From assembly GCA_020137815.1 (NCBI GenBank), contig CM035361.1, positions 2,604,001 through 2,668,000 of the forward strand: DNA of 64,000 bases. Reading direction: 5' to 3'. A program made the position numbers and the translations under genes. Shown in pieces: positions 5,449-50,725 of the stretch (the first letter of the stretch is position 1; the number at the start of each line of letters is the position of its first letter). Source of the DNA: Hormiphora californensis. Lineage: Eukaryota > Animalia > Ctenophora. The notes under the pieces were generated by a model, which saw only the letters and a program-made list of their open reading frames with translations, was not told where the DNA came from and made no database searches.

Positions 5449-14301
<8,853 letters not shown>

Positions 14302-17994: not shown

Positions 17995-20900
17995 TCACAA
18001 CCCCCTCCCTCGCCGGATCCCCGTGGACAGCCTGGTTCGTGAGGTACCCGCACCGGCAGCAGGACAAGATGGTTTGTGGTGTTCACTATTGTCACAGCAC
18101 TGGTGGTCTAGCTCTCCCTGCATGTATCTTACACACTTCTTCTTTCGTCTGAGGGGGAGAGGTGAAGTGTTACAGCCAGTTGGATAAAGTAAGGGATATA
18201 TTATATAGGGGGGTGAAGTTTTAAAGTAAGGGGGTTACCAGCATGTTGAGACCATGACAATCTTACTGACAACGTAACAAACCATCTGACATGGACAAAC
18301 TAAGTGCCAAACTGATACTGACAAACATGTCCTGCATCACGTACCTGCATGGTTTGCACCAACTACTCTGTTTGTCCAGTCCGTAGCGAGCCCGGCATTT
18401 CTTGGGACTTCCGGCATCTGAAAAACAGGTGTGTCAGCGACATATATTTTAGGTACACATGGTTGTGAGGCCCAGGAGAGGGAGTTGAGAGATAGTGTGT
18501 CAGCTTGAAACATAGGGGATTAACAAATTAGTTGATGTGCGCCGGGGGAGGGCTTGCGAGTATAATACAGAGTGCGAACACATTGGCAAGCGACTCAATG
18601 TTTCACTTGAGGATACTTGGGGGGGACTAGGGGGGTTGGTGGGGTGGAGGGGTGGAGGGGGTTGGTGGGTTCGGGGGGGGGGTGGAGGGGACGAGGGATT
18701 GGTAGACAAGGGGTGGGGGATGAGGGGTGGGGGCAGTGGGGTGGAGGGGGTGAGGGATTGGTGGGGGCTTGCAAACATGAACCGAGTAGTAGCATACTGA
18801 TTGGGGCACTTATCATTATCTGTATCTTTCTCTCACACACACGTGTTGAATATTGGCTCATTCTCACATATCAAAAACCCTGTTTTTCAGTCAAATGAAA
18901 ATAATATTTTTGCCAGGTTTAGAAAATTAATAATTATCTAATTAATTAGGGCTGTCTCACAACACTGACACACACTGCTCAGACACACTCCCTTCTTCCT
19001 AAAACAGCTGGTAGTGCAGGTACAATTTTGGACGCCATGAATTAGCCTGGTGAAATGGCTTTTTAACTTCCCCCGAGGATCCCGGTGCGACTGTACCAAC
19101 ACTCCCGTGACACTGACCTAGCTTGCTCTAAGTTTATAGGACTTCACATTTGTCCTGTATTTCAGCTAAACCATTTATATCAGCAAACAGATGTTTATAC
19201 TTTATCCCCTCAGCATCTATAATATCCTTTCTGGCAGCGCCGACCCGGTCTGAGTGCAGAAACGGGGTTTGGCGCCGCCAGGCAGTTAGTATAACAGTTG
19301 GACCCAGATATACCGGGCACTCAGATTTACCGGGTATAAAACCCTTTCCTACGAGCATCCCGGTAAATCGGGCTCCGGCTGTATTTAATACTAGCTGCTA
19401 CAATGATCCGTTCAAAACAAAAACTTGTTGCTGTGGTTGATAGTTTGCATAGTTCTTTATATATGGACACACTGATGATACACACATGATTATAATAGTG
19501 TGCTTCAAAATAATCGAACCACCTTCCCACTTTTCATGCTAGGGGAGACCAGCAAGCCCCCATCTTTTCAGTGTGCAGGGCCTAAACTAGGTTCAGGCCA
19601 GGAATTTCAGGGACGTGGTTCGATTATTATGGAGCACCCTGTATATTTATATAGCTACATGAAATGAGCTACATGTAGCTGCGGCCGATAAAAAGACGTG
19701 TTACCTGCGAAGACAGAGAGGAAACGGTGCACTCTAGAATGTAGGGATTATAATGTGGGTCAGATTACAATATGTGGGTCAGATTACAATATGTGGGTCA
19801 GATTACAATATGTGGGTCAGATTACAATATGTGGGTCAGATTACAATATGTGGGTCAGATTACAATATGTGGGTCAGATTACAATATTTGGCTCAGATTA
19901 CAATATGTGGGTCAGATTACAATATTTGGCTCAGATTACATTTGGGCCATGTCTGTCGGCGCCGATCCGATCTTAGTAGCCAAAACGGGGTCGGCGCCGC
20001 TATACACAGTTGGGTCACTTTACATGGGTCAGATAACAACATACAGATCTTGTGGTTGGATCACTTTACATGGCTCACAGAACAAACACACGGTTGAATT
20101 TCTAGAATAAGAGACAATAAATTGAGACATTACATATACCTTGTTCAGTTGTCTTGTCCCTTTTTCGTTTCTTTTTTCCTCCCGAAGCGTAGTTAGACCT
20201 GGCAGACCAATTGGGATACATCTGAAATTATCAATCAATTAGCTACCAATTTGCTACTGTAATTGCAGTCGGACCCGATTTACGGGGCCCCGATTTACTG
20301 GAACCCCGATTTACTGGGAGGATAAACTTCCTCCGATTTAGGAAATTAACCCTTTGGAGACGATTGGGTCACAGGTGACCCACAACTTTGAACCCATATA
20401 GCGTCTTTCTAGACCATATTTGAAAGTTTTAAATCGTTTCTAGGGTTGAACCATACATTTTTCTAGCATTTTGAGATCGTTTTGAGCCTCTGCAGTTGTC
20501 GTCTTCCGAAAACAGGGCTAAAACAGTGCATTTGGTAGGCAAAATGGGTAGTTTAATGGCCATACCTCAAAATTGGTACGAGTATACTTAAAATGGACTT
20601 GGAAAATGCAAGAAAAGTGTGTATTTTACCCCGGGGTAAAGTTTCAGGGTGATATTCCAAATTTTGTGCCTCTTAGAGGCCTTCAAAGTGCTGGGTCACC
20701 TGTGACCCAACCGTCCCCTAACGCTAAAACAGAAATTTGCATTTTACGAGCATTTCTAAAGGAATGGCCCCCGATAAAAGTCTAAAACGGCATTTTTTAA
20801 ACAGGTGCTAGCGACTAACCGACTCCATCATTGTTATCTCAACATCTTAGGGAGTCGATGAAAAATTTTTTGAGATCCGTGCTCCTTCAGAAAATTTTTC

Positions 20901-22001
20901 ATCTCGGCCAATTTTGAAATTCTAAAATCGGCTACAGATGAGATAGAGAGGCCCATATGGTGTGCAAACTGTGCAGAATGGCCGGGTTTATATAAGTGTT
21001 CTGAACAAACATAGGGTCTAAAATGAGCGGTTTTCGAGTTATCGGGCAAAATAGCGGCAAAATCTCAATTCCTATTTTAGCGTTAGGGGACGATTGGGTC
21101 ACAGGTGACCCAATAGAAATACAGGTGGTAGAACCAAAATTCCTTTTCATGCGTTCAAGTAGGTTCAAAGTGAGTGTCTCCAGAAAGTTTTAGAGAATTC
21201 TGTCGACAGGGGGCTTATCGTCCCCAAAGGGTTAACGGTATATTACCCCGATATACCAGGCAAAACCCTTTCCCCGAGCATCCCGGTAAATCGACCACCA
21301 ACCTGCATGTGAAGCTGCCGTTCCCTCCGGGCCATCTCATAGAACCGTTGCTGTTCACTTCGATCGAGGGCATGCCACCTCTTTCCCAGGATCTGGTTGA
21401 TGGCTGCACTCTCTTTCAGGGTATACTCCTGTACTACCTGTAATGTATTGTAATTGTGATGAAGGACAGCTGAATTACAAGTATAACTGCTGTATAAAGA
21501 TGGTGATAAGACACATTACGTGTAAGTAATGACTAATAATGAACCACACGGTACATGCTGGGGAGGGGGACGGTATGTCGCTAAATCCTTAACACGACCA
21601 TCTCAGTAACAGGTGTCCATGTCACCAAGGTAATTCTTACCTTAGCCCGCATCTCCTTCATATACAGCATGAACGCGTTGAGTGGTTTCTTGATATGCGT
21701 CGACTTCTTTTTCGCTGAAGGAAAGGGGGTTAGTTAGAGACAACATAATTATAAATACATAGTTGTAAACCTGGAATGAACTCGAAACTTTAAGATTCTC
21801 GACTGTTGACTAATGTTTGTTAGTCAGTAGGTTCTGCGTCAGTTAGGTGTGTCTAACTTTTAAAAAAACTGCTAAAAGCTTTACCATCGTGTAATTAAAC
21901 TTGAAATTTCTTTGAGAAAAAATCTCTTTGAAGCTGAGTTTTACTGACTGACAGTCGCGGGTCCTATCATACTTTCTCACAGCTCCAGATGCCATGAATT
22001 C

Positions 22002-22044
<43 letters not shown>

Positions 22045-22066
22045 TCTTTTTATCTCTCTCTCTCTC

Positions 22067-22118
<52 letters not shown>

Positions 22119-23510
22119 TCTATCCTTCAGAGGAAAAAAGGATAGAGAGAGGGAGATGGATTTTCTCTCCGACTCACCTTTTGAAGTCTTCTTCGTGGTG
22201 GTAGTCGTGGTTTCTGAGGGTGTCTGAGGATTGGATGAGGATGGTTGCTGTGTTAACAGTTGGGTGCCTGGTGTCTGACCTGAAAATGGGAAACAGTATT
22301 ACTTCAGAAACGTATTGCTATCTAAAGACGGAACCATTGAAGTACGATAACTAAACTAGAATTCGATCAGAGGAAAATAATCCGTAAAATTATAAAACTT
22401 CATAGCCCAAAAAGGCAACGGCCAAATGCGTGGCTGGAAAACTATTAACTAATTAACTAAGTAATTAACTAATTAATTAAAAGTATTTACCGAACGGTGT
22501 TGGCTGTGCGAAGGGGGGAATGTTGTAGTACATCTGTCGCTGTTGAGGGCTGAAATTAGCCATCGCTGCTGCAGCTGATGCGGGACTACTTGTACTCCTA
22601 CAAGGGGGGGGGGGTTACTCGATGATTCTATACCGTTCGTACTCAATCTGTGAAGTTGAATAACTGTATATGTGATAAGGGGGTGGTGAGGACATATCCA
22701 TTTAGTTTTTGGTATTCTACTAGAATTTCTAGGGCACGGGAAGCACCGGCTTAGAAATCGAAACTAAGAAAACTGAACAAGTCGATACAAATTACAAACC
22801 TATTGATATCGGCCAAGAGATAGTAACCTAGAACTATTGGGAGAACTGAACAAAATATAAACCTATTGATATCGGTCCCTAAACAATATAAACCTATTGA
22901 TATCGGTCCCTAGAACTATTGGGGTACTTGGCTGACAGTGTTGTGACCGATCGGTTTTTCCTGGTACATGAAAACAAAGTGGAAGTAAACAGAGAGACCT
23001 GTGTTTATCAACTGTTTAGCGGCGGGGTCAGACGGCAGTATATCATCTATTAAAATAGGGCCCTTTCTTCTTTTCTCACTCGTTCCTGCATGCACTCGTT
23101 CCTGCATGCACCTTCTTTCTCTGTTTTAATCTTCCCGTCGAGATCTGCAGCAGTTTTGCAGCTGACTCTCCTCCCCGGCTCCCTCCTTAACCTAATTATT
23201 TTCAGGACAGTGGCACGATACCATCTTATCTCAGTTCTCAAGGTCTCTCCCTAGTAATCCCCTAGTCTGTCCATTCCAGCATTGAACCCTTTTCTCAACT
23301 AATTTACCCATTGTCTCAGATTTATTGGTTCAACCAATTTGAGCCTAGAGGACTGTTTTCGTTTTCCCCCATCCTTACCTCTGCGGCCTCTCTCTCTCGC
23401 TCTCCCTCTTTCTCCCTCTTTCTCCCTCTCCCTCCCTTATCCTCCTCTCTTTTTATCCTTCCAGACCTTCTTCTCTCAGCACTATCTCTCTCTCCCTCGC
23501 TCTCTCGCTC

Positions 23511-23548
<38 letters not shown>

Positions 23549-24885
23549 CTCTCGCTGTTGTCATAATAATATTATAATAATAATATTATTAATATGTCAA
23601 TGGGAGCCAGCCAGGATCGGATCTTGTCCTTATACATTGTGTATATTGATTTTATCCTTTTCTTTCTATCTTTCTCTTCCCCCCTCTCTCTTTCTCTCTC
23701 TCTCCCTTACTTCTATCGTTTTACAACACCTGCTAGGGTGCAGTCCCGACCCACATTACCGTACGTAGCTCGTAAAATTTAGGCTCTTTCTGAAAAAAGA
23801 GAGTGGTCGGGACGGCCCTGGCAGGTTCACCCCGCGCTGGCCAAGCGCTGTATAAGGTTGTGCCGTCGGAACTAATGCCATCCCAAACTATGTTGTCTAG
23901 CTGTACAACCACGCTGCTCTCTCGTGCGACTCTTGATTGAAGAGCAACCATCAATGTTGATATTCAATTAGCAGTCTATACTCATGTGACGGAGAGAGCA
24001 GGGCTGTGCAGTGTTCGTGTCGAAAAGACAGAGGGCAAGATGGGGCGCGGTGAATTCATGTTTTGTAAGGCAGCCCTTGAGATACAGAAACAGAGGTTAA
24101 CTCCTTGCAAAACTATGGATGCGGAGAAGATAAGAAAAAAAAAAATAAAAAAAATTGGGCTGTGTCGAAGGTGTGCATGTATTAACTGATTAGTTGATCT
24201 ACCGAACCCTGATTACAGCGCGATGACGGTGTGTATCAAATGCTTAGCGGTGGGGTCAGCCGGTATATCATCTAGGACAAAATTTTGTCAGGGGTGTCTT
24301 ACCATGTGGGTTGAGGGAAGGGTTGTTGAAAGTTTGCAGCATTAACATTTGGGATGTAGGGCGTGCTGACAGACCTCCTCCCGCTGTCAATTGCACTGGT
24401 CGTCAACTGGGTTGGAACTGTCTTACTGCTGCTGGCGGGGGTCGTTACTGAAAGTACGGAAATTAATAAGACAGGAAAATTGATTATGATATTGCTGTTA
24501 TAGGTTCCTATCCGACTGGTAAGAATTAGAGATAGATTGGATTCGCGGACAATATATACTTGTTTGTTTGTCATCTCCATCCCCCGAATATCGAATGCTA
24601 GTATGTACTATCATGTTCTTTCCCAGTTTCCAGTAACATAATATTACAAATTCAAGTTAGTAAATTCTTTCAAAAAAGCCGACAATTCCTTTTATCCTAC
24701 TACCCAGCAGAGCTTTGCTTGTTCTCAACAAATAATATATCTAATTTAAGCTCTTTCAACTCTCTCTATCTCTCTCTCACTCTCTCTCTCTCTCTCCTCT
24801 CTCCTCTCTCCTCTCTCACTCTCTCTCCTCCTCTCTCTCCCTCTCTCTCCGCTCTCTCTCTCATACTCATCTCTCGTCTCTCCTC

Positions 24886-24943
<58 letters not shown>

Positions 24944-26513
24944 GTTTTGTTTGGCGGCCGCCCTGTGAACCGACAAAGGGGGCGCTGTTAGTTGTGTTTG
25001 AGAACACACACTAAGAAGATGTTGTAACAAGAACAATTTATATAAATTATATTCCACAATTTTTTGGATCCACATGCTCCGATAAAGTTATCAATTTCAA
25101 CGACCCCGACGAGAAAGGAGGTGTAATTGGTGTGTTCATGGTAATTTATTGCAAGTTATTGACATAGGGCTGCATATAAACAAACGCCAGCTCTTAGTGA
25201 GTTCTTCTGCACATCAATTCTACAGAATTTCTTCAGATTCAAATGTGCTTTATCGCATCTCACAGTTTATTCTATAATGCTGTACTTACTTGGGTTTGAG
25301 GAGGGAGAATAGTAAGGGTGAGAGTTGTGTTTCGATACTTGGTAGCTTCTGTTCTTCAGAAATTCTAAAAATAGAAGTGTGTTAGAAATAGGAAAAAGGT
25401 GAACTGCACATTCGATGGAAAAGGTAACTTAGAAAAGGTAACTAGAACTAGAGATAATTGATGAGATTCCAGCCCTAAATCATCAAGGACACGATATATG
25501 TAGAAGTTTTTAGGACCTTTCCCCCCGTTTCTCGCCGAGGTTATATTATAGGTCACCTTTGCGCTTGCCAGCGCAGTGATTGATGTTGGTTCACTCACGT
25601 TCATGTTTTATCCTGTTGGCAACCTCAATCACGACCGGAGAGATTCCAGCACTTTCCTTTATTTGTGATAGATACTGAAAAATAGTGGATGGAATTTAAA
25701 TTAGGTAGTAGGTACTGAAACAGTTGAATGGTTCATACTTTCATTTTATTCGGAGCACAGACAGGCGACTCAATGAAACAGTGGTGGATTAGGTACTGAA
25801 ACTTTGGGAGAATATATTGATTATTTTAAAGTCTATCTATCTATAAACTCAGATAAACCATCGTGTGAAATCTAACTCCCTGAGTGATATATGAATTTTC
25901 ATTTTGGAGAAAGGTCATATTATATTGAGTGGAGAGAGAGATAGATAAATGTGAATTAAAGTGACCTGAAAGCTTCTCTGTAGCTCACACCTTGTGTCTA
26001 ACTCTTTCAAACACCCCTTTAAACGGGGGGGGGGGGGGTGTTTTTAAAAGCTAATGCACATTAATGGATCAATTTTGAAGATCTAAACATTAAGCTATGT
26101 TTTGGGCCACGTGGCAACGTCTAAAATGCACACGTTTCAGGCACCCTCCCCCAATGATAATTGAAAAACAGGCCGTCAATCATGTATCACGAATCGAGAG
26201 TAAAGAAAGGGGGCTTTGGGAAAGGGTCATTACGAGATCAGAAACCGCACTCTCCAAACCGGGGGTGATTACAGTCATGCAGTATGACCAGGGCTGTGGT
26301 AGGGGATCATGAGGCAACAGACAATTATTAATTGGAATTGAGATGATAACAATTAACACTCACATCCAATGCAGCTATAAGTGGCGGCTTGTCGGCAGCT
26401 CTGACAAGCGCGTTCTTTATATCCAATAGAGCATCAGTGTGGGAATCCAATTCTCCCTCGTGCTTGAATTCCTTAATCTCATCCTGGGCACCACATTCCT
26501 CTTCGACTGCCAT
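17995..26513 (-). CDS. TCF: TCF/LEF (pangolin) transcription factor with beta-catenin-binding domain, HMG box, basic tail and C-clamp
   Basis: Ten phase-compatible exons. 26364-26513 [13 protein letters not shown]...LLDIKNALV; linker exons ~25600, ~24300, ~22500, ~22180; ~21642-21714 [19 protein letters not shown]; ~21303-21437 [24 protein letters not shown]...LHMQ; ~20140-20221 [23 protein letters not shown]; ~18345-18417 [20 protein letters not shown]; ~18148-17995 RKKKCVRY. C-terminal end uncertain. Confidence 0.96.
19294..19384. mobile_element. pogo/Tigger-like short MITE; relatives at ~11248-11325, ~20265-21295 (split by piggyBac), ~49620-49715
   Basis: CAGT...(A/G)CTG-TA ends with repeated CCCGATTTACCGGG / CCCGGTAAATCGGG subterminal motifs. 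Confidence 0.6.
19753..19941. repeat. 19-bp minisatellite, ~10 copies
   Basis: Unit ATGTGGGTCAGATTACAAT. Confidence 0.95.
20350..21231. mobile_element. Non-autonomous piggyBac-type element in a TCF intron
   Basis: TTAA|CCCTTTGG.GACGA...TCGTCCCCAAAGGG|TTAA; internal repeats of GACGATTGGGTCACAGGTGACCCA. Confidence 0.85.
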
Positions 26514-31711: not shown

Positions 31712-36996
<5,285 letters not shown>

Positions 36997-37529
36997 TGCC
37001 CCTAGAGACGATTAGGGGTGTTATAGTTTGGAATGGGCTGCGTTGTTTGTGCCAATTGAAAGAAAAGGATGGTATTCCAGATAGATCATAGTTTGCACCC
37101 AGAAGAAGAAAAAGAGTAACTTATAGAGTTGAAACAAAAGAATAGCACACGGTTTTCTGTGGTAACGTTTGACTTATATAAATCTCAACAACAACAAAAT
37201 GATCAGACAAACAGAAGTACAAAAAAAAGAAAACTTAAAATTGATAAAACCGATTCACAAAAAATCACACCCGACGCAAACGGTCTGTACCTGACAGCAA
37301 CCAGTATTGTACTAGAAATGCCGAAAGGCGAAAGTTGAATAATAATCCTGACCTACTTAATGCTTATTGCTTACACATGCATTATAATGCAATACATGTT
37401 TCAGTGCAGTGATCTTTATCCACACAAAATATATGAAACTCTAGTTAGAAGAAAGCTGTGTTTTTAGGATACATCTCCTTCTATGCCAACTTTCTTACAA
37501 TTTACAATACTGTCCAATTTTGTTCTTTA

Positions 37530-37720
37530 TTACGTTGCAAATTTCCAGTATAGCACTGCTCCCAAGATTCCCACTTCAAGGACAATTATTGCGATAAGTG
37601 CCACCCGATTTGTTACTGCCCTTCTCCCCATGTTTAGGAGAGTTCGTCGTGATGTGTTGAGGGTGTTATCCGTGTCATCCAGGACATCCCGTGTTCGGGT
37701 TAACTTCTCTCTTTGGTTAC
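37530..37720 (-). CDS. VTI1: Second copy of the Vti1 terminal (SNARE-end + TM) exon, protein-identical to 39863-40053
   Basis: Intact acceptor, same length, same stop, 10 synonymous differences. Part of a duplication ~37041-37908 vs ~39402-40254. Confidence 0.8.
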
Positions 37721-38241
37721 CTGACAGGATGTGTTAGGATTTACAATGGGGTGTACAAAATACTAGATTGATAAACATTCAATATTGTATCTCCGTGCAA
37801 GAGTACAAAATTACACTGTAAACTCTGTAATGTCGAAAACGTGTAAATATCACAACTCTGTACTGTGAAAAAGTACAAATATCACACCCTACCTAACTCT
37901 GTATTGATAATCATACTACTTACTATTCAAATTGTCAGTGCTACATCACCTAGCAACTACACCTGCACGTGCAATTATTAGAGCAACTTAGAAACCTCAC
38001 TTCCAGTTGCAGTTTTGGGTACTAAGAGGAAATTCAATTCTGCACGTGCATTCTTTTACTTTTGTCCTGATGTCTAACTCTTCAACCCCAAGCGCTATTC
38101 GGCAACGGTCATCTGGGTCCGGAAGATCTGCTGCTGTCAGGGAGCAGGCTAGAGAATTACGCCAACGTGTTCAAGCGAGCCAATCAACGACTACTGATAG
38201 CTTTGCCTTTACCCAACGTCGCCCAAGGGCGATTACTCCAA

Positions 38242-39182
38242 TTAGTAGAGGCAATAATTACAGTCACCTCCTCTGATTTCTATGAAACTTCTCCCATGCT
38301 AAGAGGTGGCAATAGAGGTTCAAATACCGCAGAGTTTAAGTCTGAACAATGTTCGGTTCGTTAATTATCGCTAATTGAAAAACGCAAAAATGGCCTAAAA
38401 TCGCCCTAAGTTCCGAATTGAAATTTTGGAGTTGAGACTCCAGACTTCGTAGAGATGTCCGCTAGGATGACAATATGCCCCAAAATCGGACGGAAGCCTA
38501 AATTCGTCCGAATTCGGTACGAAAAGCCGGGTAGACTGATTTTTGGTCACGTGACATGGGTCCAAAATCAGTTTTTTGCCATTTACGCCTTTCCTGTACG
38601 TCGGAGACAAAAAATATGGCCAATACTTGTCATTTCCATCGCTTTCTGCATCTTTTAAGCCCCCTATAAACATCCCTTACTTCAACGGTTCAGAAGTTAG
38701 AGTTTTTCAGGAGACTAAATGACGTCACTTCTGAACCGTTGGAGTAAGGGATGTTTATAGGGGGCTTAAAAGATGCAGAAAGCGATGGAAATGGCAAGTA
38801 TTGGCCATATTTTTTGTCTCCGACGTACAGGAAAGGCGTAAATGGCAAAAAACTGATTTTGGACCCATGTCACGTGACCAAAAATCAGTCTACCCGGCTT
38901 TTCGTACCGAATTCGGACGAATTTAGGCTTCCGTCCGATTTTGGTGCATATTGTCATCCTAGTGGACATCTCTACGAAGTCTGGAGTCTCAACTCCAAAA
39001 TTTCAATTCGGAACTTAGGGCGATTTTAGGCCATTTTTGCGTTTTTCAATTAGCGATAATTAACGAACCGAACATTGTTCAGACTTAAACTCTGCGGTAT
39101 TTGAACCTCTATTGCCACCTCTTAGCATGGGAGAAGTTTCATAGAAATCAGAGGAGGTGACTGTAATTATTGCCTCTACTAA
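38242..39182. mobile_element. Foldback element: 456-bp near-perfect inverted arms with a 29-bp spacer
   Basis: 38242-38697 is the reverse complement of 38727-39182 (mirror ORFs in the track); TSD readable as TA or AAT. Confidence 0.9.
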
Positions 39183-39862
39183 ATCGAATATAGAAATCTC
39201 TGAATGGCTACATAGCGGCCAAGTTTTCACGTGATAAGTTTCTGGAACAGCACTACACCTCCCTGACATTGATCTCTTAAATTCGCACCTTCACATTGTC
39301 AGGAAGCCCATAGCGTACAATAAAATGGGTAGTTTTAGGGGGGAAAGTGAAATAGGCGGACCGGATGGTGCGGGGATGTCAGCGTTCCCAATCCAGCTAA
39401 ACGTTGTTTGTGCAATGAAGGGGTCCAGAGTTTGCACCCAGAAGGCCCAGAAGAAGAAAAAGAGTAACTTATAGACTTGAAAACAAAAGAATAGCACACG
39501 GTTTTCTGTGGTAACGTTTGACTTATATAAATCTCAACAACAACAAAATGATCAGACAAACAGAAGTACAAAAAAAGAAAACTTAAAATTGATAAAACCG
39601 ATTCACAAAAAAATCACACCCGACGCAAACGGTCTGTACCTGACAGCAACCAGTATTGTACTAGAAATGCCGAAAGGCGAAAGTTGAATAATAACCCTGC
39701 TCAATGCTTACACATGCAATACATGTTTCAGTGATCTATATTCACACCCTGATATATAAAACTCTAGTCGGCTCTTGTTACAACAAAGCTGTGTTTTTAG
39801 AAAACATCTACTTCTATGCCAACTTTCTTACAATTTACAAAACTGTCCAATTTTGTTCTTTA

Positions 39863-41272
39863 TTACGTTGCAAATTTCCAGTATAGTACCGCTCCCAAGA
39901 TTCCCACTTCAAGGACAATTATGGCAATCAGCGCCACCCTATTTGTTACTGCCCTTCTCCCCATGTTTAGGAGAGTTCGTCGTGATGTGTTGAGGGTGTT
40001 ATCTGTGTCATCCAGCACGTCCCGTGTTCGGGTTAACTTCTCTCTTTGGTTACCTGACAAGATGTGTTTTGTGTTATGATACCGTTCGGATTTACAACTT
40101 GAATGGGGTGTACAAAATACTAGAATGATGAACATTCAAGATTGTATCTCCGTGCAAGAGTACACTGTAAACTCTGTAATCGGGAAAACGTGTAAATATT
40201 ACAACTCTGTACCTGTGAAAAAGTACAAATATCACACCCTACCTAACTCTGTATCACTGCGCTGGCAAGCGCAAAGGTGACCACCACCTCCCCCAGCCGC
40301 GCGTGCCAGAAAGCAGTAATAAGTTTTTTCAGTTTTTAGCCAAAAATGGCATTTTGCGAGGCCCATAGCGAGGCCCCCACTCAACCAATCGGTCTGGAAT
40401 TTGGTATACAGTGTCATGTAGACTAGATCTACTGGAGTTCAAAAGGGCAAGTCTCCATCTTTTTTAGTTTCATAGTTATGACATGGTGAAAAAAGCAATA
40501 AATGTCCGTGTCTATATATATATACATATATACATCCATAGACGCTTTTTTACACAATTTGCAGACAATTTTCTGGAAAAACTACAAGAGGTAGACACTT
40601 CTCGTTTGAATCATTCAAAAGATAATCGTTTGAATTGTGTTATTGGACGGTTTTCATGTTCTAGGTCCAACCAGAACGTCCTAAAAAACTGTCATAAAGT
40701 TAAGACATTTTCAAAATCAACCAAACTTCTTTGAGCTCAATTTACACCCTGAAGACGGCTTCTGATTGAAAAATGGAGACCACACTTATAAAAGATAATC
40801 GTCTAAACTTTCAGAAACTATATTGCGAATTTGTGAAACTCTATTTGCAAGGGTCTTAAATCGCGTCTGAAGTTTTAAAACTGTATAAAATAGATATGAC
40901 GATAGTGCGTTTTTCGCCATAGCGACCTCAAATTTTGTCCAATCGATCTCAAACTTGGTCAGCATCTTTATCTAGATAAGCCTGATAATAAGTTTTCACT
41001 AGCATGACGTTATAACTTCATGACGTCACGCTATGACGTCATAATGACGTCAAAATTGAAATTTTCGTACTTTATCGATTCCTGACGGTCTTTACAAGTT
41101 CTGCTACGTCCAGACATGTCTAACATCGTATTTCACATCAGAAAATACCAAAAATGAACCTAAATTATGCCAAAAACTAAAAGAAATTAGTTGGCTGGAA
41201 AGGTGACCACTTTTGTTGTCAAACTGACGCCTTTGCCCGGCCCGGGTTACGGAAAGAGAGAGAAAGAGAGAA

Positions 41273-41358
<86 letters not shown>

Positions 41359-44300
41359 TAGTGATCAGAGAGGGATATGATGATGAAAAAACCCGGAGAC
41401 GGCAAAGGTGTCAGTTTGACAACAAAAGTGGTCACCTTTCCAGCCAACTAATTTCTTTTAGTTTTTGGCATAATTGATAATATAATACTATGCACAATGC
41501 TATACAGGGACTAATCCAAATACGAAATATATCACACCCTACCTAACTCTGTATTGATTTCCGTCCCGAGGTTCTCTGTTTCAACTGCAATCTGTTCAGT
41601 TCGGTTTAATGCAGCTCTACTTCTCTCTGTAGCACCTTGATTGGAGAGCACCTGTCTCCTGAGATAGAGAGGGATGGGGTGAGATAGATAGGGATGGGGT
41701 GAGATAGATAGAGGGTGAGAGAGGGGATAGAGAAAGAGCGTGACACGATAAAGAATCAAAATTGTCAAGTCAGTTAGTTTAGTTAGTCTAACATTGTGAG
41801 ATCAGTAGAGGGCTGACAGAGGTCTGGGGAGGCCCTCCTAAGGAGAGAGATGGAATAAAGGGAGAGGGCTAGGGGGAGAGGTGAAGGGGACGATTGAAAC
41901 ACTCAGTATTTTTTAAACAGGAGAAATCGATTCATACAAAAAGATGCAAAACAATACAAATTTCCAAAAACACAATTCTCTCCTGTTTACACTTTTTCAT
42001 CTTATTAGCATCATAATTGCCGCAGTATAAAAAGTTTCCACTTCACAAACACACACACTAGGAACTACTCTTCATGGAAAGTCACAGAGGGAACACTTGG
42101 CATGCACTGCAGTCCCCCAGTGCACGCGTTTGTGATGGTCACTATAAAGGGGTCTGCAGCGTAGTCCAAAGTGAATTCTTGATTAGTGTGGTATGTTGCA
42201 CCAAAACAGTAGGGGACTGTGGTATGTGTGGACAGAAAAGCAGCGCTATCCCCCTGTATGTTGAACAGCCATACATACTACACACATGACCAAACATCCC
42301 AACATCAAGTGGATTTCCACTTCGAATCAGGAATTCTCGGTACGTGACTCTCCAATGAGAGGTGTGTGAGATGTGTAGTGGAGAGGTTAAAAACACAATA
42401 CATATAGAGTACCAGGCGCTGTACGTGCGAAGTGGAAACAGCATGTTACACTTGATAGTACTGGTGTTCGCCGATAGGACTCACAGTCTATTCAAGACCT
42501 AACCCCGGCTCGAAAATATTGTCAGATTGGCGAAAATTTCGAGCCGGGATCAAGACAAGGTTTTACCAGTGCAGAACAGTAAGGGGAATCAAATGACATG
42601 TTTCCCTCCCAGAGTTCACGTGTCTAACAGTTAGTGTCACTCTCTCCCACGCACAGTGCCTGATAATAATAATCTACCACTTATTAGTATAAAACCGTAA
42701 TATTATATGTATCCAGATCCAATATTATAGAGCACGTGTCATCAAAACATCTTGTGACGTCACGATCTCAGCACGTGAAAAACACCCTGTGACGTCACGA
42801 TCTCAGTACGTGCAAAACATCTTGTGACGTCACGTCAGAAACACCCTGTGACGTCACGTCAGAAACACTAACGATCCCTGTGACGCCCTCTTATTGTGGG
42901 AGAGCAAATTGGTAATCACAGCAGAACTGCAGTAGTGTTCTAGCTACTATTTTACTCAGCGGGACTTCTCCTTCTTCTCCTTCAAATGTGTGATCAACAC
43001 TATTGTTTAAAAAGTTCTAACCCATTACAAATCCTCTACTACAGATTTCTACCATTCAATAGTTCTACTGTGCAGTAGATGAATAACGTAGTAAATATCT
43101 ATCAACCACTCACTTTCTTTCGATCACTTCTTTCTCTTTCTTTCACTTTCTTCACTGCTCACTTTCTCTGGTAATCATCAACCAGAGCATCATCTTCCTC
43201 TTCCTCATACGCACTGAAGCGTGTCCTTCTTTTTAGCAAATAAATATCACTATATTTACGCACCAATTTCTTGAAACTTATACCGCCGTAAAATACGAGT
43301 TTCTGGAGAGAATCGCTAAACCCAGAGCCCCATTTGGCATACGCTGCAGGCCCCTCTGATAAAGGGGCCTGGAGCGATCCGCCAATTGCCCTATTAGTTA
43401 TTTTCCTAAAATCCGAAACCCCAATTCTTATCTCTCACTGTGTTGTCTCTTATTTCACGGCGGTCAAACTATAAATGTCATTTATGTCAAGAATTGTTTT
43501 CACCAACTTCGACAGCAGACACACGTGACGCTAAACTCGTTGCTAAGGCGAACAGGTTTTCAGGAATTGATGAGTTCTTTCTTGACATAAATGCCATAAA
43601 ATGTATAGAAAAGGTAAACCAAAACAAACACACAAACTATGGACCATGTTCAACATTTCAGGTCAAACACAGTTCACAAGGATCGATTTGTTTTGGTTTA
43701 CCTTGGATAAAATAATTATATATAGCGATACTTATATTAATTAATTAGTATTTATGAATATAATTAGAAGTATAGTAATCAACTGTAAAACAATTTAATG
43801 GAAATTTAAAAAGAGTACTTCTATATATCGTGTGAAAGTATAGATATTATTATTGCGAGACCTCTATCTCTCTCTTTCTCCCATTATTATATGTTACGAA
43901 ACACCATGGACACACTGCTCCTTCATAAAACTCGACACTCAGTATTCGGTAGACACTAGAGACTGGTGGGGGTGTTTCGGGTTAGAGACCGTTTTACTGG
44001 GAGTTAGGTTAAGCTTTCGCGGAAAAACAAGCATAAACCTACAGGAACACGATTCTCTTTCCCTCGCACCCACACCAACGACCCAAAAGTTCAGAATCAA
44101 TCATTTCCCAGGGGACTAACACATGGGGCACACGTACACACATATCGATCATACTGCTTACATACAGAAAAAATACCATGAAAAAAGGGTTTTAAAAAAG
44201 CGAAATTCAAATGGCACGAATAGATATATATATAAAGTTGGTAAAGGATCTCTTTACAATACAGCAGTATTCTCGATACATGACACATGACCACATTATG

Positions 44301-47300
44301 TAGGACTCAGGACTAAAGATGCAGCAAAATTTGGGCCATTTCTCTCACATTTTTGTGTCTCAGTGTAAATATGTGACTGGGTTCGGAGCATAATATATTG
44401 GTGTTCAGTGTGTCTCTCATATTACACTGTTCTCGTGTAAACCCTGTGAAGTTGCATTTTCTAGGAACTTTACCATGCAATAAATTCACGGGTATTCCAG
44501 CTCCATTGTAATCCAACAAAATCTGTTGTTTAGACAGAATTAAGATGGAATTCAGAAGGAGCTTCTAGGGATCGATTTCTCCAATCTTGTTCGGTTTTTT
44601 GGAGAGGACAGAAAACTTTACAATTTTCAATCATAAACATGTCCAAATTGATGAACAATTAATGTTAAAATAAGTCTCTACGAATTCTACTACCCTAAAC
44701 AAAATTATGCAAATATTCCCACTATGAAAAAATCAACCGAAGTAACCATCAGATTTTCTAAAAAATTCATTTTTTTTCTCATTTTTATCTCATTTTTTTA
44801 TGAACCCTTTCGCCACTCAACAGTTCTCTAACCGACATTCTTGAAGCTCTCCAACTCCCTCAGACTTGCCAGGATATCTTCTTCACTGTCTTCATCATCA
44901 TCGTCGTCGTCAACTACATTTCGCATCATTTGAATTCCCTGCTGCTCTGCATTTCTCATCATCATGGCCTGGTGTTGCTCCTTCATAAATTGCTGCTCCT
45001 TCATAAATTGGCCCATTCCTTGCTGCTCCTTCATAAATTGCCCCATTCCTTGTTGCTCCTTCATAATTTGTCCCATTCCTTGTTGCTCCATCATTTGCCC
45101 CATTCCACCCTGTTTCATGATCATACCACCCTGCTGCTGCTGCTGCGGGATGTTATCCTCAGATTTGTGGATTCCCAGCAACTTCAGTAACTCCGTGCTG
45201 GGATCCTCAGTATTTTGCTGTTGCTGTTGCTGTCGGTGAAACTGTTGCTGAATCTGCCGCTGGAACATCTGCTGGAACGCCGCGGGGAGCTGCTGTTGCT
45301 GTTGCGGGGTCATTGGTGAGATAGGACCATGTTGTTGCTGTTGCTGCATCATCGGTTTCTGCTGAGTCAGCTGTTTGATCTGTTGTTCCAGTTGCTTCTG
45401 CAGCTCTGCCGCCTGCTGCTTTTGTTGCATATCAGCCAGGTAGTCCGGAAGATTAGCCGGGAATCCTGTACTTGGGGTAGGAGGGGCTGATGAATTACTG
45501 CTTCCCGGCTGAGACATAATCTGGTCGGTGAAGGAGAGGATGGTCTGAGCAGCACTTCGGAGGTCGGCCAGCTTGTCAAAACCTCCACCACCCTGGTTAT
45601 TATTGGGCCTGGTGTTTGTATTACCCATGGCCTGTCGGGCATTTGCACTGAGGTGTTGAGGGAAAGTAGCCTGAAGGGGCAGAACAGGGGTCCTAACTTT
45701 TCCGGGTCCAATTGCTGTCCTCAGCATGGGGCAATACTTGAGAGTATGGGCGTAATCACCGGTCGCTTTGCAGACTTTACACTCGTAGGCATACAGGATT
45801 GGGCAAACGATCTTTCCCTCTGCCGACATGAGAGTGTGGGTGGTATAAACTGATTCGTCTTCTCGATTGTTCTTGCAGAACTTGCATATCAGCTGAAAGT
45901 AGATAGAACATGGGGTTAGTTTAAAAAAACATAATATGTATATTTTGACATGTTTCCGTCGGGTATGGGCGGTATACAAGCGCGGAATATTATTATTATT
46001 ATTATTATGTATTCGGGGTAGATAACATACATGAGAAAATTTCAAAAAAAAAATTATAAGTCACTGACCTGTTTCTTATGAGATCCCGAAGCAATAGCAT
46101 TTCCACCCCACCGTCCATCTCCGACCATTCCACCGGGTGCCCGGGGGAAACCCCACATGTTACTATCAGCTCCACCCCTTGGTTGGTTTTCAGGTTTTTT
46201 GATACACCTCCAATCTTCAACCTTCTCTTCTTCCTCATCCTCCTCATCTTCCTCAAGAACAGAAGCAGCAGCGAGCTCAAAGTTTTGGGCATCGTAATGG
46301 TCAGGAGCCGCCGCGGCTACAACTCCTCCAGCAGGTTCTTGGTCCTTTATTTGCAGTGCTTTGGTGAATGATGCGGCTATGAAGTTCTCTGAACTGTTGC
46401 TGGAACACTCGCTCTCCGAGTAGTATCCTGGATCTTTGTTTGTAGGAACGGGAGAGGGGACGGAGGAGGGGGAGGAGAGGGATGATGCGATTGCCTCTGC
46501 TGGTGGGGCCAGTGGAGCCCCTACAGCTGGTGCTGCTGCAACCTCACTGGCAGGATATGTCGTGTCAGGTGTCCCAATCGGCTGCTCCGACAGTTTCCGT
46601 GGGTTGAAAATCTGGGCCTCACGGATGACATTGTCTGGTTCGGTTGGTGTTTGTGCGCCGGAAGCCGGAACTTGTGATTCCATCATTACTGGAAGATTAT
46701 GCTGCAAGCCTGTGTTTCCAAGGTTGGGGAAGTAGTCAGGAGAGGAGATAGTTTTGGTGAAGCTAAGAGGATCGGGGGAATCACTGGAAAACCCGAAAGC
46801 GTCACGAGTGGGTCTTGTTGCGAGGGTGCTGGGTCGTCTGAAGCCAGACTCAACTGGGCGTTGGAAGCCAAATGCATCAGTACTTGGTTTCGATGACCGA
46901 TTTAACTCACTTTGGAAGACATCACTGGGTGCAGGTGGGAAGCCAAACGCATCAGACTTTGGCTGGAATCCCTCCATGGAAGAAGATTGATTTGAGAACC
47001 CATCAGGCCTTCTAAACCCAGCCCTTTCAGACGGAAATGTCTTGAATCCGAGCCTCTGAGTGTCTCCACCGAAAGTGTCACCCCCAAAATCAGATGATTT
47101 AAATCCACCTCCGCCAAAACCTTCCGTTTGGGGTTCATTACCAAATCCATCACTCTGCTGCCGGGTGAACCCTCGACCAAAACCACTTTTCCTAACCACA
47201 CCACCAACACCATTATTGGTGAAACCACTCCTCCCTCTCGGTGCACCAAACTCACCAGATTCACCTGCTTTCTGCTCGGACATTCTAAGGAACTCCCGGT

Positions 47301-50240
47301 ACTGGGCTGCTAGTTGAGCGGTAGAACTAGCCGGAACAACAGCAGGGGGATTTGGGGAAGTTATGGCCGTCGAACCGAGACCAGCTGTATTCCATATTGA
47401 ATTTGAGGCGGTGTTTTCTGTGGCCGCCCCACCTCCCCCACCTGCTGAGGGTAATTCAGGAACTTGACTTTCAGGATAAAACATAATGCTACAAAGGAAA
47501 ATAGGGGAGTTAGTAACAAACTTTTTGTTAGTAAAACAGATAATTCTATAGAGGGGGATAAGGAATAAGAGGTGTAAAAGTGGGGAGACCAAGGCACAGG
47601 AGTAATAACACAGAGGGAAATGGGGGGTTGGTTATACAGATGATTTTAAAGAGGGGAATAAGGGATGTATGAGGTTTAAAAGTGGGAATCGGGTAACATG
47701 GCACAGAAAAGAAACCGGGAAACAGATTGCACCAAATTACCGGGGTGTATTGGTGGCGGAGATCAGGTCTCCGATCTGACAATGTTAAACGTCTGTCAGT
47801 ATTTGAGTTTATCAGTATTTGAGTTTAACAGTATTTTGGTATGTCAGTTTTCAGTATGTTTTAGTAAATGGTAGTCTGGTAGTCTATTTATGAGAAGTGA
47901 AGTGATATAAGAGAAGCTCTGTTGTACCTTGTGGTATCTGCAGTTCCAGGTGGACTATCTGTTCCATATCTATGACTATCATCCTCCGCGGTGAAGGATC
48001 TCTTCAACTCAGCTAACTCTGCCTGGAACTCCCGTAACCGGTAGGAAAGCTTGGGTCGCGTCGATAAATCAGCTTTGTCGACCTGTAGCAAAGAGAAACA
48101 GCGGTGTTATCAAACGAAACGTGGGAAGAGGCGATGTAGGTGGAGATTTACAGAAAGGGAGATATAGGTGGAGAGGAAGATAGAAAGATATCGGCGGAGA
48201 AGATAGAAAGATAGAGCGGACGGTGAGCTACTTAGGCGATATTTAGCGTAACTGTCAGGGCACACACCCACACACATCCGCACACATGGTTACAGTTAGA
48301 TCACAATCCACAGTATGTATGTACTGAGTCCCAGTATGTATGTACAAAGACCAGAGTCCACTCTCTATTCTCACATTTTACCAAGTTCATAGTAAGCTCT
48401 ACTCTCATATTTTTGCAAGTTTTACAAAAAATGCAGCAAAAAAGTATTTAAAACTAACCTCGTTCTGCATGTCGTTGAGTGTGCACTGTGCTGCATCCAA
48501 TCTCCTGTGTATATCCTGCACTAGCATCTTTCGAGGTTCTCCTGCGGGGAGTTTTCAAATAACATAACAGGTATTCCCTTAGTGGGTCCGTCTCAGATAA
48601 ATTATTTTATTATTATTATTAAATCTGTTTACAATAATTTGACACTGTCAATATTGCCCTCCTATTTGCGAGGAAAATGGAACTCTCTAGGTCTCTTTCA
48701 CACTTTCTCAGCTGTCAGATCATACAAAAAAAATATAAAATGTCGATTAAAATACTGATTAGATAATGATTAAAATATATTGTAAATTGATTAAATAAGT
48801 TAGTTAAAAATTCACTCCGTGGAGTGCGATTCGTACACAGTGTGTACGTCTCGGGCTGGTCAGTTATACATTTACAATTGATTAGAATATAAACCCATTA
48901 CACAAGCAGTTGATCCCCAAATAAAGATTGTTCTATTACAGCTCTTACTAGCTTTCTAAAGTTCGATTTTACCTGCTTGTCTTTGGAGAAAATTAGTGGA
49001 AGATGGAAGTTCATTTCATAAGAAGATATCACCCTTAGTTCCTCACGGGGCCCTTCCACATCTTTTATCGCAGAACATTCAAACAACTTGTGGAATGTTG
49101 AATCTGGGAGTTGGCCACATTCAAGACAGTTGGGAACTGTAAGTGATCGCTCGTATCTCAGGTAACTGAAGCTGAAGTCTTGAAAACGTAAGGATCTGCC
49201 ATGTACAAAGTCTAAGACCTGAGATGAGTTCTGTCGGGACATGTTTCTTGGAATTATGGGGAAATCCAAAGTGGCCTCTGAGTTGATAAGGTTGGCGAGT
49301 TCTTCTTGAGAGTGAATAAATTATTAAACATTCGAGGAGACTTAGGGAAACAAATTTCATAGCAATAAATATAAAATGGTAATATTTTTGCATTTAGAGA
49401 AAACAGTTTTTCGTGAGGTGTACCCTTTGATCGATGTGGGTGTTGCGTGATATATTCTTCATTTGGCGGCAAAGCCCCCCTCCCGGCATAATTATAATAA
49501 TTGGGTGTTTTATTTCGTAATATAAGGGTTGTCTCTTTCGACGAATGTTCGCACGGGAAATAGTATAAAATTGATGTGTGTTTAGACATCCGATCCTTGT
49601 AATGGGATATTGTGTAAAATACAGTCGGTATTCATTTCGGGGTAAAATATTTCAAACTTATATCAGGGGAAATTTATCCGGTAAATCGGGGTTCTGATAA
49701 ATCAGGGTCTGACTGTTCTACTAGCTGCCCACACGCGGGAGAAATGATGAAAAAGGAGCAAAAAAAAGTGTGTCAAAAGACATTTACCGGAATGATAAAA
49801 AACCAGGTTACTCTATCTTTCTCTATTTCTCTCACTCTTTCTCTCTGCGTCGAAGGGTGCACACAATGTTTCCGGTATACACGCACATTTTCTCAGTTTT
49901 GAGCTCTCTCTCTCACACACTTTTATCACACTCGATATTACTCCTGTAATCTCACAATCACTCCCGTCTCAGTATATCGCTCTTTTTAAAACGCTGACAT
50001 CCTAGAAAATACCGTGAAAATCGGTAGCAAATAGTAAATTATGAGTACAGTATGCCGAAATGTTGTCAATAATGGTGTTAATAAAATAATTATCAAAATT
50101 ACGAGACAGAGGGAAAGTTTCCCTCTGGAAAACTTACGGGATGCATTTGGTAGTTTGTATCTGATTAGATTTCCAATAGCTTTAGAGAGTTCTGCAAAGT
50201 CCCCAGCAGCGTTATCAAACGCCGCTGTTGAGCGAGACAT
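39863..50240 (-). CDS. VTI1: Vti1 Qb-SNARE (VTI1A/B family), 5 exons, 215 aa
   Basis: Exons 50138-50240, 48459-48541, 47928-48082, 41543-41658, 39863-40053 join in phase (1,0,2,1). They encode a Habc region, a SNARE motif (LNRTEQIAVETENLGTEINTELGNQREKL...MGRRAVTNR) and a C-terminal TM anchor. Confidence 0.93.
40255..41475 (+). mobile_element. Helentron/HINE-like non-autonomous element; related end at ~25390-25580 on the minus strand
   Basis: Starts with hairpin TGCGCTGGCAAGCGCA + AAAGGTGACCAC, which recurs inverted near 41428. A ~75-bp inverted repeat (41164-41238 / 41401-41475) brackets a (GA)n run. Confidence 0.55.
44828..47484 (-). CDS. nanos: Nanos (two CCHC zinc knuckles), ~826 aa, two coding exons
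   Basis: Exons 46069-47484 and 44828-45892, phase-0 intron. CKFCKNNREDESVYTTHTLMSAEGKIVCPILYAYECKVCKATGDYAHTLKYCP is the canonical zf-nanos domain. Confidence 0.96.
48600..49290 (-). mobile_element. 5'-truncated non-LTR retrotransposon in Vti1 intron 1
   Basis: ORF end with CLECGQLPDSTFHKLFEC (CxxC-x8-H-x4-C LINE zinc knuckle), then a 3'UTR ending in (TAA)n at ~48600-48623. Confidence 0.7.
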
Positions 50241-50401
50241 TACTAGCTAGAAAATAGGGGTCATAATTAGGAATCAAAATTAATTTTTATTTAGGGAAAA
50301 CGAGAAAATCTGACAGTGATATTCCGGGTTTAGAACGTATGTAAAATGTTACGGTTAAATTCACACAACAACTATTAAAATACAATATCATACAATCCAG
50401 G

Positions 50402-50725
50402 CTAACTCTTTGTCACCATGTGACGCATCAACATACTGTTCAATTTTTCTAATTTTTTGGCATCCTGCCCCTGATCAGACATGAACTTGATGACAAGGGC
50501 GTTGTTGGTCACCTTTAACACCTGAAATAATAGAAGATATCGAAAAGGGGGAACTTTTAAGGTTTCAACAGTACATCAGGATTAAATGAAGTTGAGAAAA
50601 CCCACCATTTTCCCATCGCAGTGTCGGTATTTCATTGTATATTTGAATGCTGATGGTTCATCAAGGTACAACTGCTCTGAGGCAGCGTAAAAATCGTCCC
50701 AGTTATCAAAATAAGACTTTCGCAT
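50402..50725 (-). CDS. SRP9: Signal recognition particle 9 kDa protein, 79 aa, two exons
   Basis: 50606-50725 MRKSYFDNWDDFYAASEQLYLDEPSAFKYTMKYRHCDGKM + 50402-50521 VLKVTNNALVIKFMSDQGQDAKKLEKLNSMLMRHMVTKS*. Matches SRP9 motifs W(D/E)(D/E)F, KYRH.DG and DQAQD.KK.EK. Not in the ORF track. Confidence 0.95.

What the first reader, a model, noticed from the sequence alone, without database searches (positions are those of the whole stretch)
41659..47927. nanos nested on the same strand inside Vti1 intron 3, with little promoter space and an in-frame Vti1-Nanos splice option
Seen: the whole nanos gene lies in the 6.3-kb intron between Vti1 exon 3 (ends 47928) and exon 4 (starts 41658), in the same orientation. 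Only 439 nt separate the Vti1 donor from the acceptor 4 nt before the nanos ATG (tttgtag|CATTATG, 47488). Vti1 exon 3 ends ...ACA AG (phase 2), so splicing to that acceptor reads ACA AGC ATT ATG TTT, in frame: a 113-aa Vti1 Habc region fused to full-length Nanos. A 35-nt AG/GT mini-exon (47741-47775) also lies in between; it puts a stop in the Vti1 frame but is ATG-free as a 5'UTR. Inference: nanos is cut from the Vti1 pre-mRNA by alternative cis-splicing or SL trans-splicing, so use of the nanos poly(A) site would exclude full-length SNARE. Phase match has a 1-in-3 chance probability.
Basis: partly seen in the sequence, partly recalled or inferred. Interest (0 to 1): 0.85.

Follow-up and report, generated by a model that had tools for sequence, protein, structure and literature searches.

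The report
Comb-jelly nanos nested inside Vti1 intron
In this comb jelly the stem-cell gene nanos sits inside an intron of the membrane-traffic gene Vti1 on the same strand, a layout common in this family, and its message likely gets its 5' end from a trans-spliced leader rather than being fused to Vti1.

Summary
The anatomy is real. nanos (826 aa, zf-nanos) lies on the same strand inside the 6,269-nt intron 3 of Vti1, the coordinates check, and an exon 3 to nanos splice would read open (941 aa). DNA contigs of two species cover the interval, and a P. bachei gene model shows the same order, so misassembly is unlikely. The fusion has no support: two full-length orthologues start at the same Met without a Vti1 part. 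An acceptor just before the ATG is usual here (5 of 6 gene starts), and those five end in TAG while 7 of 7 checked internal acceptors end in CAG. Transcript contigs of a likely ctenophore nanos paralogue carry the spliced leader (SL) joined at such a TAG. So the site is most likely an SL trans-splice acceptor. Whether the pre-mRNA comes from its own intronic promoter (about 0.55) or from an SRP9-Vti1 polycistron (about 0.28) is open; this gene's own RNA was not seen. Parallel nested genes and SL trans-splicing are already described in Pleurobrachiidae. Verdict: new member of a known kind, with a testable operon lead.

The parts
50402..50725 (-). SRP9, two exons (50725-50591, 50521-50402); candidate first gene of a same-strand cluster; nearest AG is 43 nt before its ATG
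   Evidence: Pfam SRP9-21 25.2 bits, cut-off 21, on exon 1; weak hit on exon 2
50241..50401 (-). 161-nt SRP9-Vti1 spacer with AATAAA at 50291 and a TAG acceptor (exon start 50246) 6 nt before the Vti1 ATG; operon-like
   Evidence: function inferred
50138..50240 (-). Vti1 coding exon 1
   Evidence: open frame when joined; no Pfam hit alone
48459..48541 (-). Vti1 exon 2
   Evidence: no Pfam hit alone
47928..48082 (-). Vti1 exon 3, end of the N-terminal (Habc) domain, phase-2 donor
   Evidence: V-SNARE E 0.034, profile positions 60-89 of 92
41659..47927 (-). Vti1 intron 3 (6,269 nt), host of nanos
   Evidence: covered by DNA contigs
47718..47800 (-). block kept in another haplotype (X6) and, from 47718, in organism B (X11) while its flanks differ; contains the 35-nt AG/GT segment 47775-47741; candidate nanos promoter or 5' exon
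   Evidence: joint tables (single contigs; 30-78 letters on the short side); no stable fold, z -0.9; role inferred
47489..47533 (-). nanos 3' splice site: two TACTAAC branch motifs (47533, 47515), pyrimidine tract, TAG; likely SL trans-splice acceptor
   Evidence: the P. bachei model reads through the same site in the same phase
46069..47488 (-). nanos exon 1 (1,420 nt; ATG at 47484)
   Evidence: 81% identical to P0001; same start Met as P0011 and P0015
44828..45892 (-). nanos exon 2 coding part: CCHC zinc finger and Q-rich tail
   Evidence: zf-nanos E 6.5e-23
43794..43799 (-). only ATTAAA (no AATAAA) between the nanos stop and Vti1 exon 4; candidate weak poly(A) signal
   Evidence: absence of AATAAA is not significant (P 0.126 in 500 shuffles)
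41543..41658 (-). Vti1 exon 4 (SNARE motif, first half), CAG acceptor
39863..40053 (-). Vti1 last exon, copy a (SNARE end and transmembrane tail)
37530..37720 (-). Vti1 last exon, copy b (10 of 191 nt differ, 0 of 63 aa)
36996..37004 (-). TAG acceptor and ATG of the next same-strand gene (MBOAT family), 533 nt after the last Vti1 stop
   Evidence: MBOAT identity from a weak Pfam hit (E 0.019) on the matching P0001 tail; start codon picked by eye

Best explanation
nanos is a same-strand nested gene in Vti1 intron 3 that is likely transcribed from its own short intronic promoter and likely receives the ctenophore spliced leader by trans-splicing at the TAG acceptor 4 nt before its ATG, so it would make ordinary Nanos and not a Vti1 fusion. 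Shown: the nesting, the acceptor anatomy, the shared order in P. bachei, the common start Met of orthologues, and leader joining on a likely paralogue. Inferred: (1) a promoter near 47718-47800 yields a roughly 250-nt outron with no Vti1 donor upstream, which would favour trans-splicing; (2) Vti1 transcripts would pass over the 1.4-kb TAG-led exon and a weak poly(A) signal and join exon 3 to exon 4; (3) the two genes would then compete only through ordinary transcriptional overlap. Split of belief: SL at 47488 about 0.8; given that, own promoter about two to one over release from the Vti1 transcript.
For: Contigs L002 and L003 (2 of 4 loci) begin with a leader ending AATTTGAG, joined 30 and 15 nt before the ATG of a likely ctenophore nanos paralogue. 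L002 matches 20 of the last 25 letters of the published Hormiphora leader (by eye). L004 is 96.5% identical to L003 over 3,405 nt but keeps the genomic branch motif and TAG at that join, and L001 keeps one too. In the window 5 of 6 gene starts have a YAG within 10 nt of the ATG; 4 of 6 pass a pyrimidine filter that 54 of 943 minus-strand ATGs pass (P 1.5e-4). Those 5 are TAG, while 7 of 7 frame-checked internal acceptors are CAG (Fisher P 0.0013; background 135 TAG to 215 CAG). Orthologues P0011 (Bolinopsis RefSeq, 782 aa) and P0015 (Logan, spliced, 684 aa) start at the homologous Met and carry only zf-nanos. No AATAAA or ATTAAA lies between the exon 3 donor and the acceptor, which operon-type release would normally need. 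A block near 47718-47800 is kept while its flanks change. The Hormiphora paper reports 2,357 nested genes, many parallel, and the leader on at least 56% of Iso-Seq reads (PMC8527503, passages). Ctenophore loops mostly join promoters to enhancers (77% in Mnemiopsis; PMC12221973, passages), so little proximal space need not limit regulation.
Against: The leader was seen on the likely paralogue, not on this gene; the branch separating the two groups has support 86/89, below the starred level. No start site, chromatin mark or promoter motif was shown, and the conserved block rests on single contigs. The donor-acceptor gap is roughly 110 nt shorter in haplotype X6 (my arithmetic on the joints). Vti1 itself has almost no promoter room after SRP9 (161 nt; AATAAA about 40 nt before its acceptor), so polycistronic transcription through the locus is plausible. 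The TAG/CAG contrast is post hoc and small, three of the start codons were picked by eye, and one internal TAG acceptor was seen by eye in the kinectin-like gene (near 12271) outside the counted set. Splice-site strength was not scored.
Confidence: 0.55

Rival explanations
1. nanos has no promoter of its own. It is an intron-embedded cistron of an SRP9-Vti1(-MBOAT) polycistronic unit, released by SL trans-splicing at 47488, either at the cost of that Vti1 transcript or from the excised intron.
For: SRP9 has no start-proximal AG, ends 161 nt before the Vti1 ATG, and has AATAAA about 40 nt before the Vti1 TAG acceptor. [quoted passage not shown] The six genes I read in the window are on one strand. 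The gap is short and length-polymorphic.
Against: No AATAAA or ATTAAA between the exon 3 donor and the acceptor. An upstream donor on the same RNA usually diverts an acceptor to cis-splicing (C. elegans work, recalled, no call). A stem-cell regulator under a housekeeping promoter fits less well with the patterned expression of Mnemiopsis nanos1 (PMC4971632, passages; which paralogue that is was not determined). No dicistronic RNA was observed.
Confidence: 0.28
2. nanos has its own promoter and a short non-coding first exon (the 35-nt segment or an exon ending at 47741), cis-spliced to 47488; any leader would be added upstream at 47775.
For: The segment has AG/GT ends and no ATG and lies in the block kept in X6 and X11.
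Against: Its acceptor has only 50% pyrimidines and is one of 7 YAG and 10 AG sites in 439 nt. The 47488 acceptor is TAG like other start-proximal sites. The paralogue takes the leader directly at the start-proximal site. How often such a pair arises by chance was not computed.
Confidence: 0.12
3. Alternative cis-splicing from Vti1 exon 3 makes a functional Habc-Nanos fusion that would tether Nanos to membrane-traffic coats, at the expense of the full SNARE.
For: The joined frame is open for 941 aa, and a second TAG at 47545 is also in frame. The Pfam N-terminal domain is essentially complete at the end of exon 3. The 4-nt spacing appears kept in P. bachei.
Against: Phase match is 1 in 3, and the two species are close. 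Orthologues start at the nanos Met without V-SNARE. None of the 8 hit rows (7 distinct proteins) from the two 'longer' nanos searches lists a V-SNARE domain. Join-to-ATG distance varies freely in the paralogue (14, 15, 30 nt).
Confidence: 0.03
4. The nesting is an assembly artefact.
For: No listed contig spans the intron, and the Vti1 3' end is duplicated nearby.
Against: Seven DNA-like runs of two organisms cover 30 of 30 bins, and no listed joint links the two sides of the nanos region (21 joints not shown). The independent P. bachei model P0001 starts in Vti1 exon 3 sequence (16 of 20 aa), runs into nanos and ends in the downstream MBOAT exon.
Confidence: 0.02

Closest known systems
Nested intronic genes of Hormiphora californensis (PMC8527503; passages read; supplements not available)
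   Same: Same family of ctenophores; gene wholly inside one host intron; the paper states many are parallel and need separate processing
   Different: The paper passages name no nanos/Vti1 case and give no mechanism; its gene lists could not be seen and may include this locus
Ctenophore spliced-leader trans-splicing (PMC8527503 passages; Derelle et al. 2010 seen only as a citation, text not held)
   Same: Leader ending AATTTGAG found on likely nanos paralogue contigs, joined at a TAG just before the ATG
   Different: Leader not observed on this gene; a TAG-versus-CAG split of acceptors was not seen in the passages read
Nematode and tunicate SL-resolved operons (PMC7668243, PMC7986045; passages)
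   Same: Short same-strand spacing with a poly(A) signal just before an unpaired acceptor (SRP9-Vti1)
   Different: For nanos the upstream element is a splice donor inside a host gene, not a poly(A) site; no dicistronic RNA shown. C. elegans 'hybrid' and 'alternative' operons are recalled only (papers not held)
Mnemiopsis nanos1/nanos2 (PMC4971632; passages and section 12)
   Same: Two nanos paralogues in a ctenophore, matching the two groups
   Different: Genomic context not described in what I read; which of the two is this gene's orthologue was not determined

Membership tests
Nanos | Two CCHC zinc knuckles (zf-nanos, PF05741) | tested here: met
   81.2 bits, cut-off 27
Vti1 (Qb SNARE) | N-terminal V-SNARE domain, SNARE motif and C-terminal membrane anchor in one open frame | tested here: met
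   215-aa open frame; V-SNARE and V-SNARE_C hits on single exons, each below the curated cut-off; joined protein not scanned
Parallel nested intronic gene | Whole coding region inside one host intron, same strand | tested here: met
   47484-44828 inside 47927-41659
Parallel nested intronic gene | Host exons 3 and 4 joined in mRNA; both transcript ends of the guest inside the intron | not testable with these tools
   needs RNA of this locus; exon join inferred from the open frame
SL trans-spliced gene | Unpaired 3' splice site with branch motif just before the start codon | tested here: met
   (unpaired only if the transcript starts below the exon 3 donor)
SL trans-spliced gene | Leader on the 5' end of this mRNA | tested here: inconclusive
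   seen on likely paralogue contigs L002, L003; not on this gene
SL-resolved operon | Short spacing with an upstream poly(A) signal before the downstream acceptor | tested here: inconclusive
   met for SRP9-Vti1 (161 nt, AATAAA 50291); not met for the nanos acceptor
SL-resolved operon | Single promoter and polycistronic precursor | not testable with these tools
   needs CAGE or nascent RNA
Conserved read-through fusion gene | Fused protein found in relatives | tested here: not met
   P0011 and P0015 start at the nanos Met, zf-nanos only; searches are of limited sensitivity

The most novel reading that the evidence does not exclude
Ctenophores have true operons, and nanos is an intron-embedded cistron of an SRP9-Vti1-MBOAT unit. 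A TAG-versus-CAG acceptor code would let the leader machinery cut a stem-cell regulator out of a housekeeping gene's intron while cis-splicing ignores it, which would explain how this family tolerates so many parallel nested genes.
Probability: 0.2. Interest if true: 0.72.

Novelty: new member of a known kind. Interest (0 to 1): 0.4.

Why it matters
How ctenophores process a guest and a host gene on the same strand is named as unexplained in the Hormiphora genome paper. This locus is a compact test case with well-known genes: reads at one site (47488) separate leader, mini-exon and fusion, and one RT-PCR across the 161-nt SRP9-Vti1 spacer tests for a ctenophore operon. It also matters in practice: the P. 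bachei model of this nanos is a three-gene chimera, and perturbing Vti1 or nanos at this locus could affect both.

Tried and rejected
No whole genome is held. Run search: no RNA holder listed. X12, guessed to be RNA, covered 2 of 30 bins with short repeat-like matches. Neither blank is evidence on expression. Vti1 exon 3 as query: no hit among 45 candidates; 3 hits among 1.84 billion representatives, all MBG-domain proteins taken as chance. So no ctenophore Vti1 protein was recovered. Metagenome scan with the nanos N-terminus: 0 of 600 candidates. No Vti1 exon match in L001-L004. Exact look-up of 10 window ORFs: 0 of 10. No leader copy in the window (best matches 11 nt or 13 of 14 nt). The 35-nt segment folds no better than shuffles (37 of 200 as good). 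The sigma-70 scan does not apply to an animal and was ignored. Lack of AATAAA after nanos is not significant. In the acceptor count one of 8 internal rows (33189) was mis-set by one base and dropped, leaving 7. Splice-site strength and the chance rate of the mini-exon were not computed. Literature: no relevant title for nanos+vti1+nested (8 papers listed); Pleurobrachia+trans-splic+operon gave 1 review, listing only; two searches gave 0; some searches were seen as listings. Derelle 2010 and three look-ups for C. elegans operon papers were not held. The library lacks most subscription papers, so absence from print is not established.
Full report
Organism. The nearest named protein to the nested gene is a Pleurobrachia bachei model, P0001 (81% identical over exon 1; 64 of 64 over the zinc-finger region; name). 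The window is therefore from a pleurobrachiid ctenophore close to P. bachei (inference). No whole genome was available.

Observation. Vti1 has five coding exons that join to an open 215-aa frame, with weak V-SNARE and V-SNARE_C hits on single exons. Intron 3 is 6,269 nt and holds the two-exon, 826-aa nanos frame with a full zf-nanos domain. The exon 3 donor is 439 nt from the acceptor at 47488, which has two TACTAAC motifs and a pyrimidine tract. Joining exon 3 to it gives an open 941-aa frame, and a TAG at 47545 is in frame as well; the other 8 of 10 AG sites in the gap meet a stop by residue 195. The 35-nt AG/GT segment exists, but its acceptor is only 50% pyrimidine.

Assembly. Seven DNA-like runs (four of organism A in two studies, three of organism B in two studies) each cover 30 of 30 bins. 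No listed contig spans the intron. One X6 contig runs from beyond Vti1 exon 4 about 0.9 kb into the intron (41480-42569). P0001 is a chimeric model: its first 20 residues match an off-frame reading of Vti1 exon 3 (16 of 20), residues 51-822 match the two nanos exons, and residues 798-851 match an exon at 33189-33028 with a weak MBOAT hit. So the order Vti1 exon 3, nanos, MBOAT is shared with P. bachei.

Fusion. Two full-length orthologues, P0011 (Bolinopsis microptera RefSeq) and P0015 (a spliced Logan contig), align from the same first Met and carry only zf-nanos. The two 'longer' searches with nanos gave 1 and 7 hits, none listing a V-SNARE domain. These searches are of limited sensitivity, and whether those species nest nanos in Vti1 is unknown. 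The phase match stays at 1 in 3.

What the acceptor is. A scan of metagenome contigs with a nanos alignment gave 4 loci from 134 candidates. They share the DPGY motif of exon 1 with this gene but lack two motifs that follow the zinc finger in the window gene and in P0001-P0006, and they fall outside that group in a small tree (support 86/89, not starred). I read them as the second ctenophore nanos; Mnemiopsis has two (PMC4971632, section 12). L002 and L003 start with a leader ending AATTTGAG, the conserved end given for ctenophore leaders (PMC8527503, passages), and L003 ends in a poly(A) run. L004 is 96.5% identical to L003 but has a branch motif and TAG in place of the leader, 14 nt before the ATG; L001 has the same anatomy. 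This shows leader trans-splicing at a start-proximal TAG in a likely nanos paralogue. In the window, Vti1, nanos, MBOAT, a TCF-like gene and a kinectin-like gene (the last name from recall, no Pfam hit) have a YAG 1-9 nt before the ATG, and SRP9 does not. Four of these six pass a filter met by 54 of 943 ATGs. All five are TAG, against CAG in 7 of 7 frame-checked internal acceptors (P 0.0013; one further row mis-set and dropped). The sample is small and post hoc, and I saw one internal TAG by eye. Still, the nanos acceptor looks like every other gene-start acceptor here and not like a Vti1 internal one. That it takes the leader is inferred (about 0.8).

Where the pre-mRNA starts. This could not be tested. 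For an own promoter: no AATAAA or ATTAAA lies between donor and acceptor; a block near 47718-47800 is kept in haplotype X6 and in organism B while its flanks are deleted or diverged (single contigs); an upstream donor would tend to capture the acceptor in cis (recalled from nematode work); and ctenophore promoters use looped distal enhancers (PMC12221973, passages). For release from a longer transcript: SRP9 stops 161 nt before the Vti1 ATG with AATAAA about 40 nt before the Vti1 acceptor, within the range of nematode and tunicate operons (passages); the six genes read are on one strand; and the gap is roughly 110 nt shorter in X6. I put these at 0.55 and 0.28. The 3,169 nt after the nanos stop contain one ATTAAA and no AATAAA, which would suit read-through by Vti1 transcripts but is not significant (P 0.126).

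Comparison. Hormiphora has 2,357 nested genes in 1,654 hosts, many parallel, and the leader on at least 56% of long reads; a glass-sponge paper calls about 10% nested exonic bases normal across phyla (PMC10282587, passages). The Hormiphora gene lists could not be read and may already hold this locus. My searches found no paper on nanos in Vti1 or on Pleurobrachia operons, within an incomplete library. Earlier notes of this scan on the same genome mention a spliced leader and intronic copies of exon ends; they are unchecked leads, not support.

Verdict. A real, conserved parallel nested gene, most likely SL trans-spliced: a new member of a known kind, interest 0.4. The leads worth following are the operon-like SRP9-Vti1 junction and the TAG/CAG split, which together make the processing of parallel nested genes testable at this locus.

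Noticed in passing
window 50241-50401 (minus): SRP9 and Vti1 are 161 nt apart with AATAAA about 40 nt before a TAG acceptor; candidate ctenophore operon junction.
   Followed up: partly
window 50246, 47488, 37001, 26522, 14302; L001, L004: Start-proximal acceptors all end in TAG while frame-checked internal acceptors end in CAG; possible trans- versus cis-acceptor preference.
   Followed up: partly
window 37098-37904 and 39446-40254: The end of Vti1 exon 4, the last exon and the 3' UTR are duplicated at about 2.35 kb spacing; 10 of 191 nt differ, 0 of 63 aa. Real duplication or haplotype artefact not decided.
   Followed up: partly
window 38234-39190: 464-nt inverted repeat, 98% complementary, 29-nt loop, between the two last-exon copies.
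   Followed up: no
window 41163-41475: 86-nt inverted arms around a (CT)n tract in Vti1 intron 4; very high contig depth at its edge suggests a MITE-like repeat.
   Followed up: no
window 47558-47850 in run X6: Another haplotype replaces 106 nt by 17, inserts 28 nt and skips 47 nt in the donor-acceptor gap.
   Followed up: partly
P0001: The P. bachei nanos model is a chimera of Vti1 exon 3 (off frame), nanos and an MBOAT exon.
   Followed up: yes
window 46069-47484 and 44970-45120: This Nanos has a long FG/RG-rich N-terminal insert absent from P0011 and P0015 and 30-nt tandem repeats in its Q/M-rich tail.
   Followed up: no
window about 18000-26513 (minus): TCF/LEF-like gene: HMG box at 21246-21515 (E 2.2e-9), start at 26513 picked by eye; same strand as the cluster.
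   Followed up: no
window 48898-49320 (minus) and 35297-35800 (plus): Intronic ORFs of 140 and 168 aa with high contig depth at the first; they look like retroelement remnants (recalled), with no Pfam hit above cut-off.
   Followed up: no
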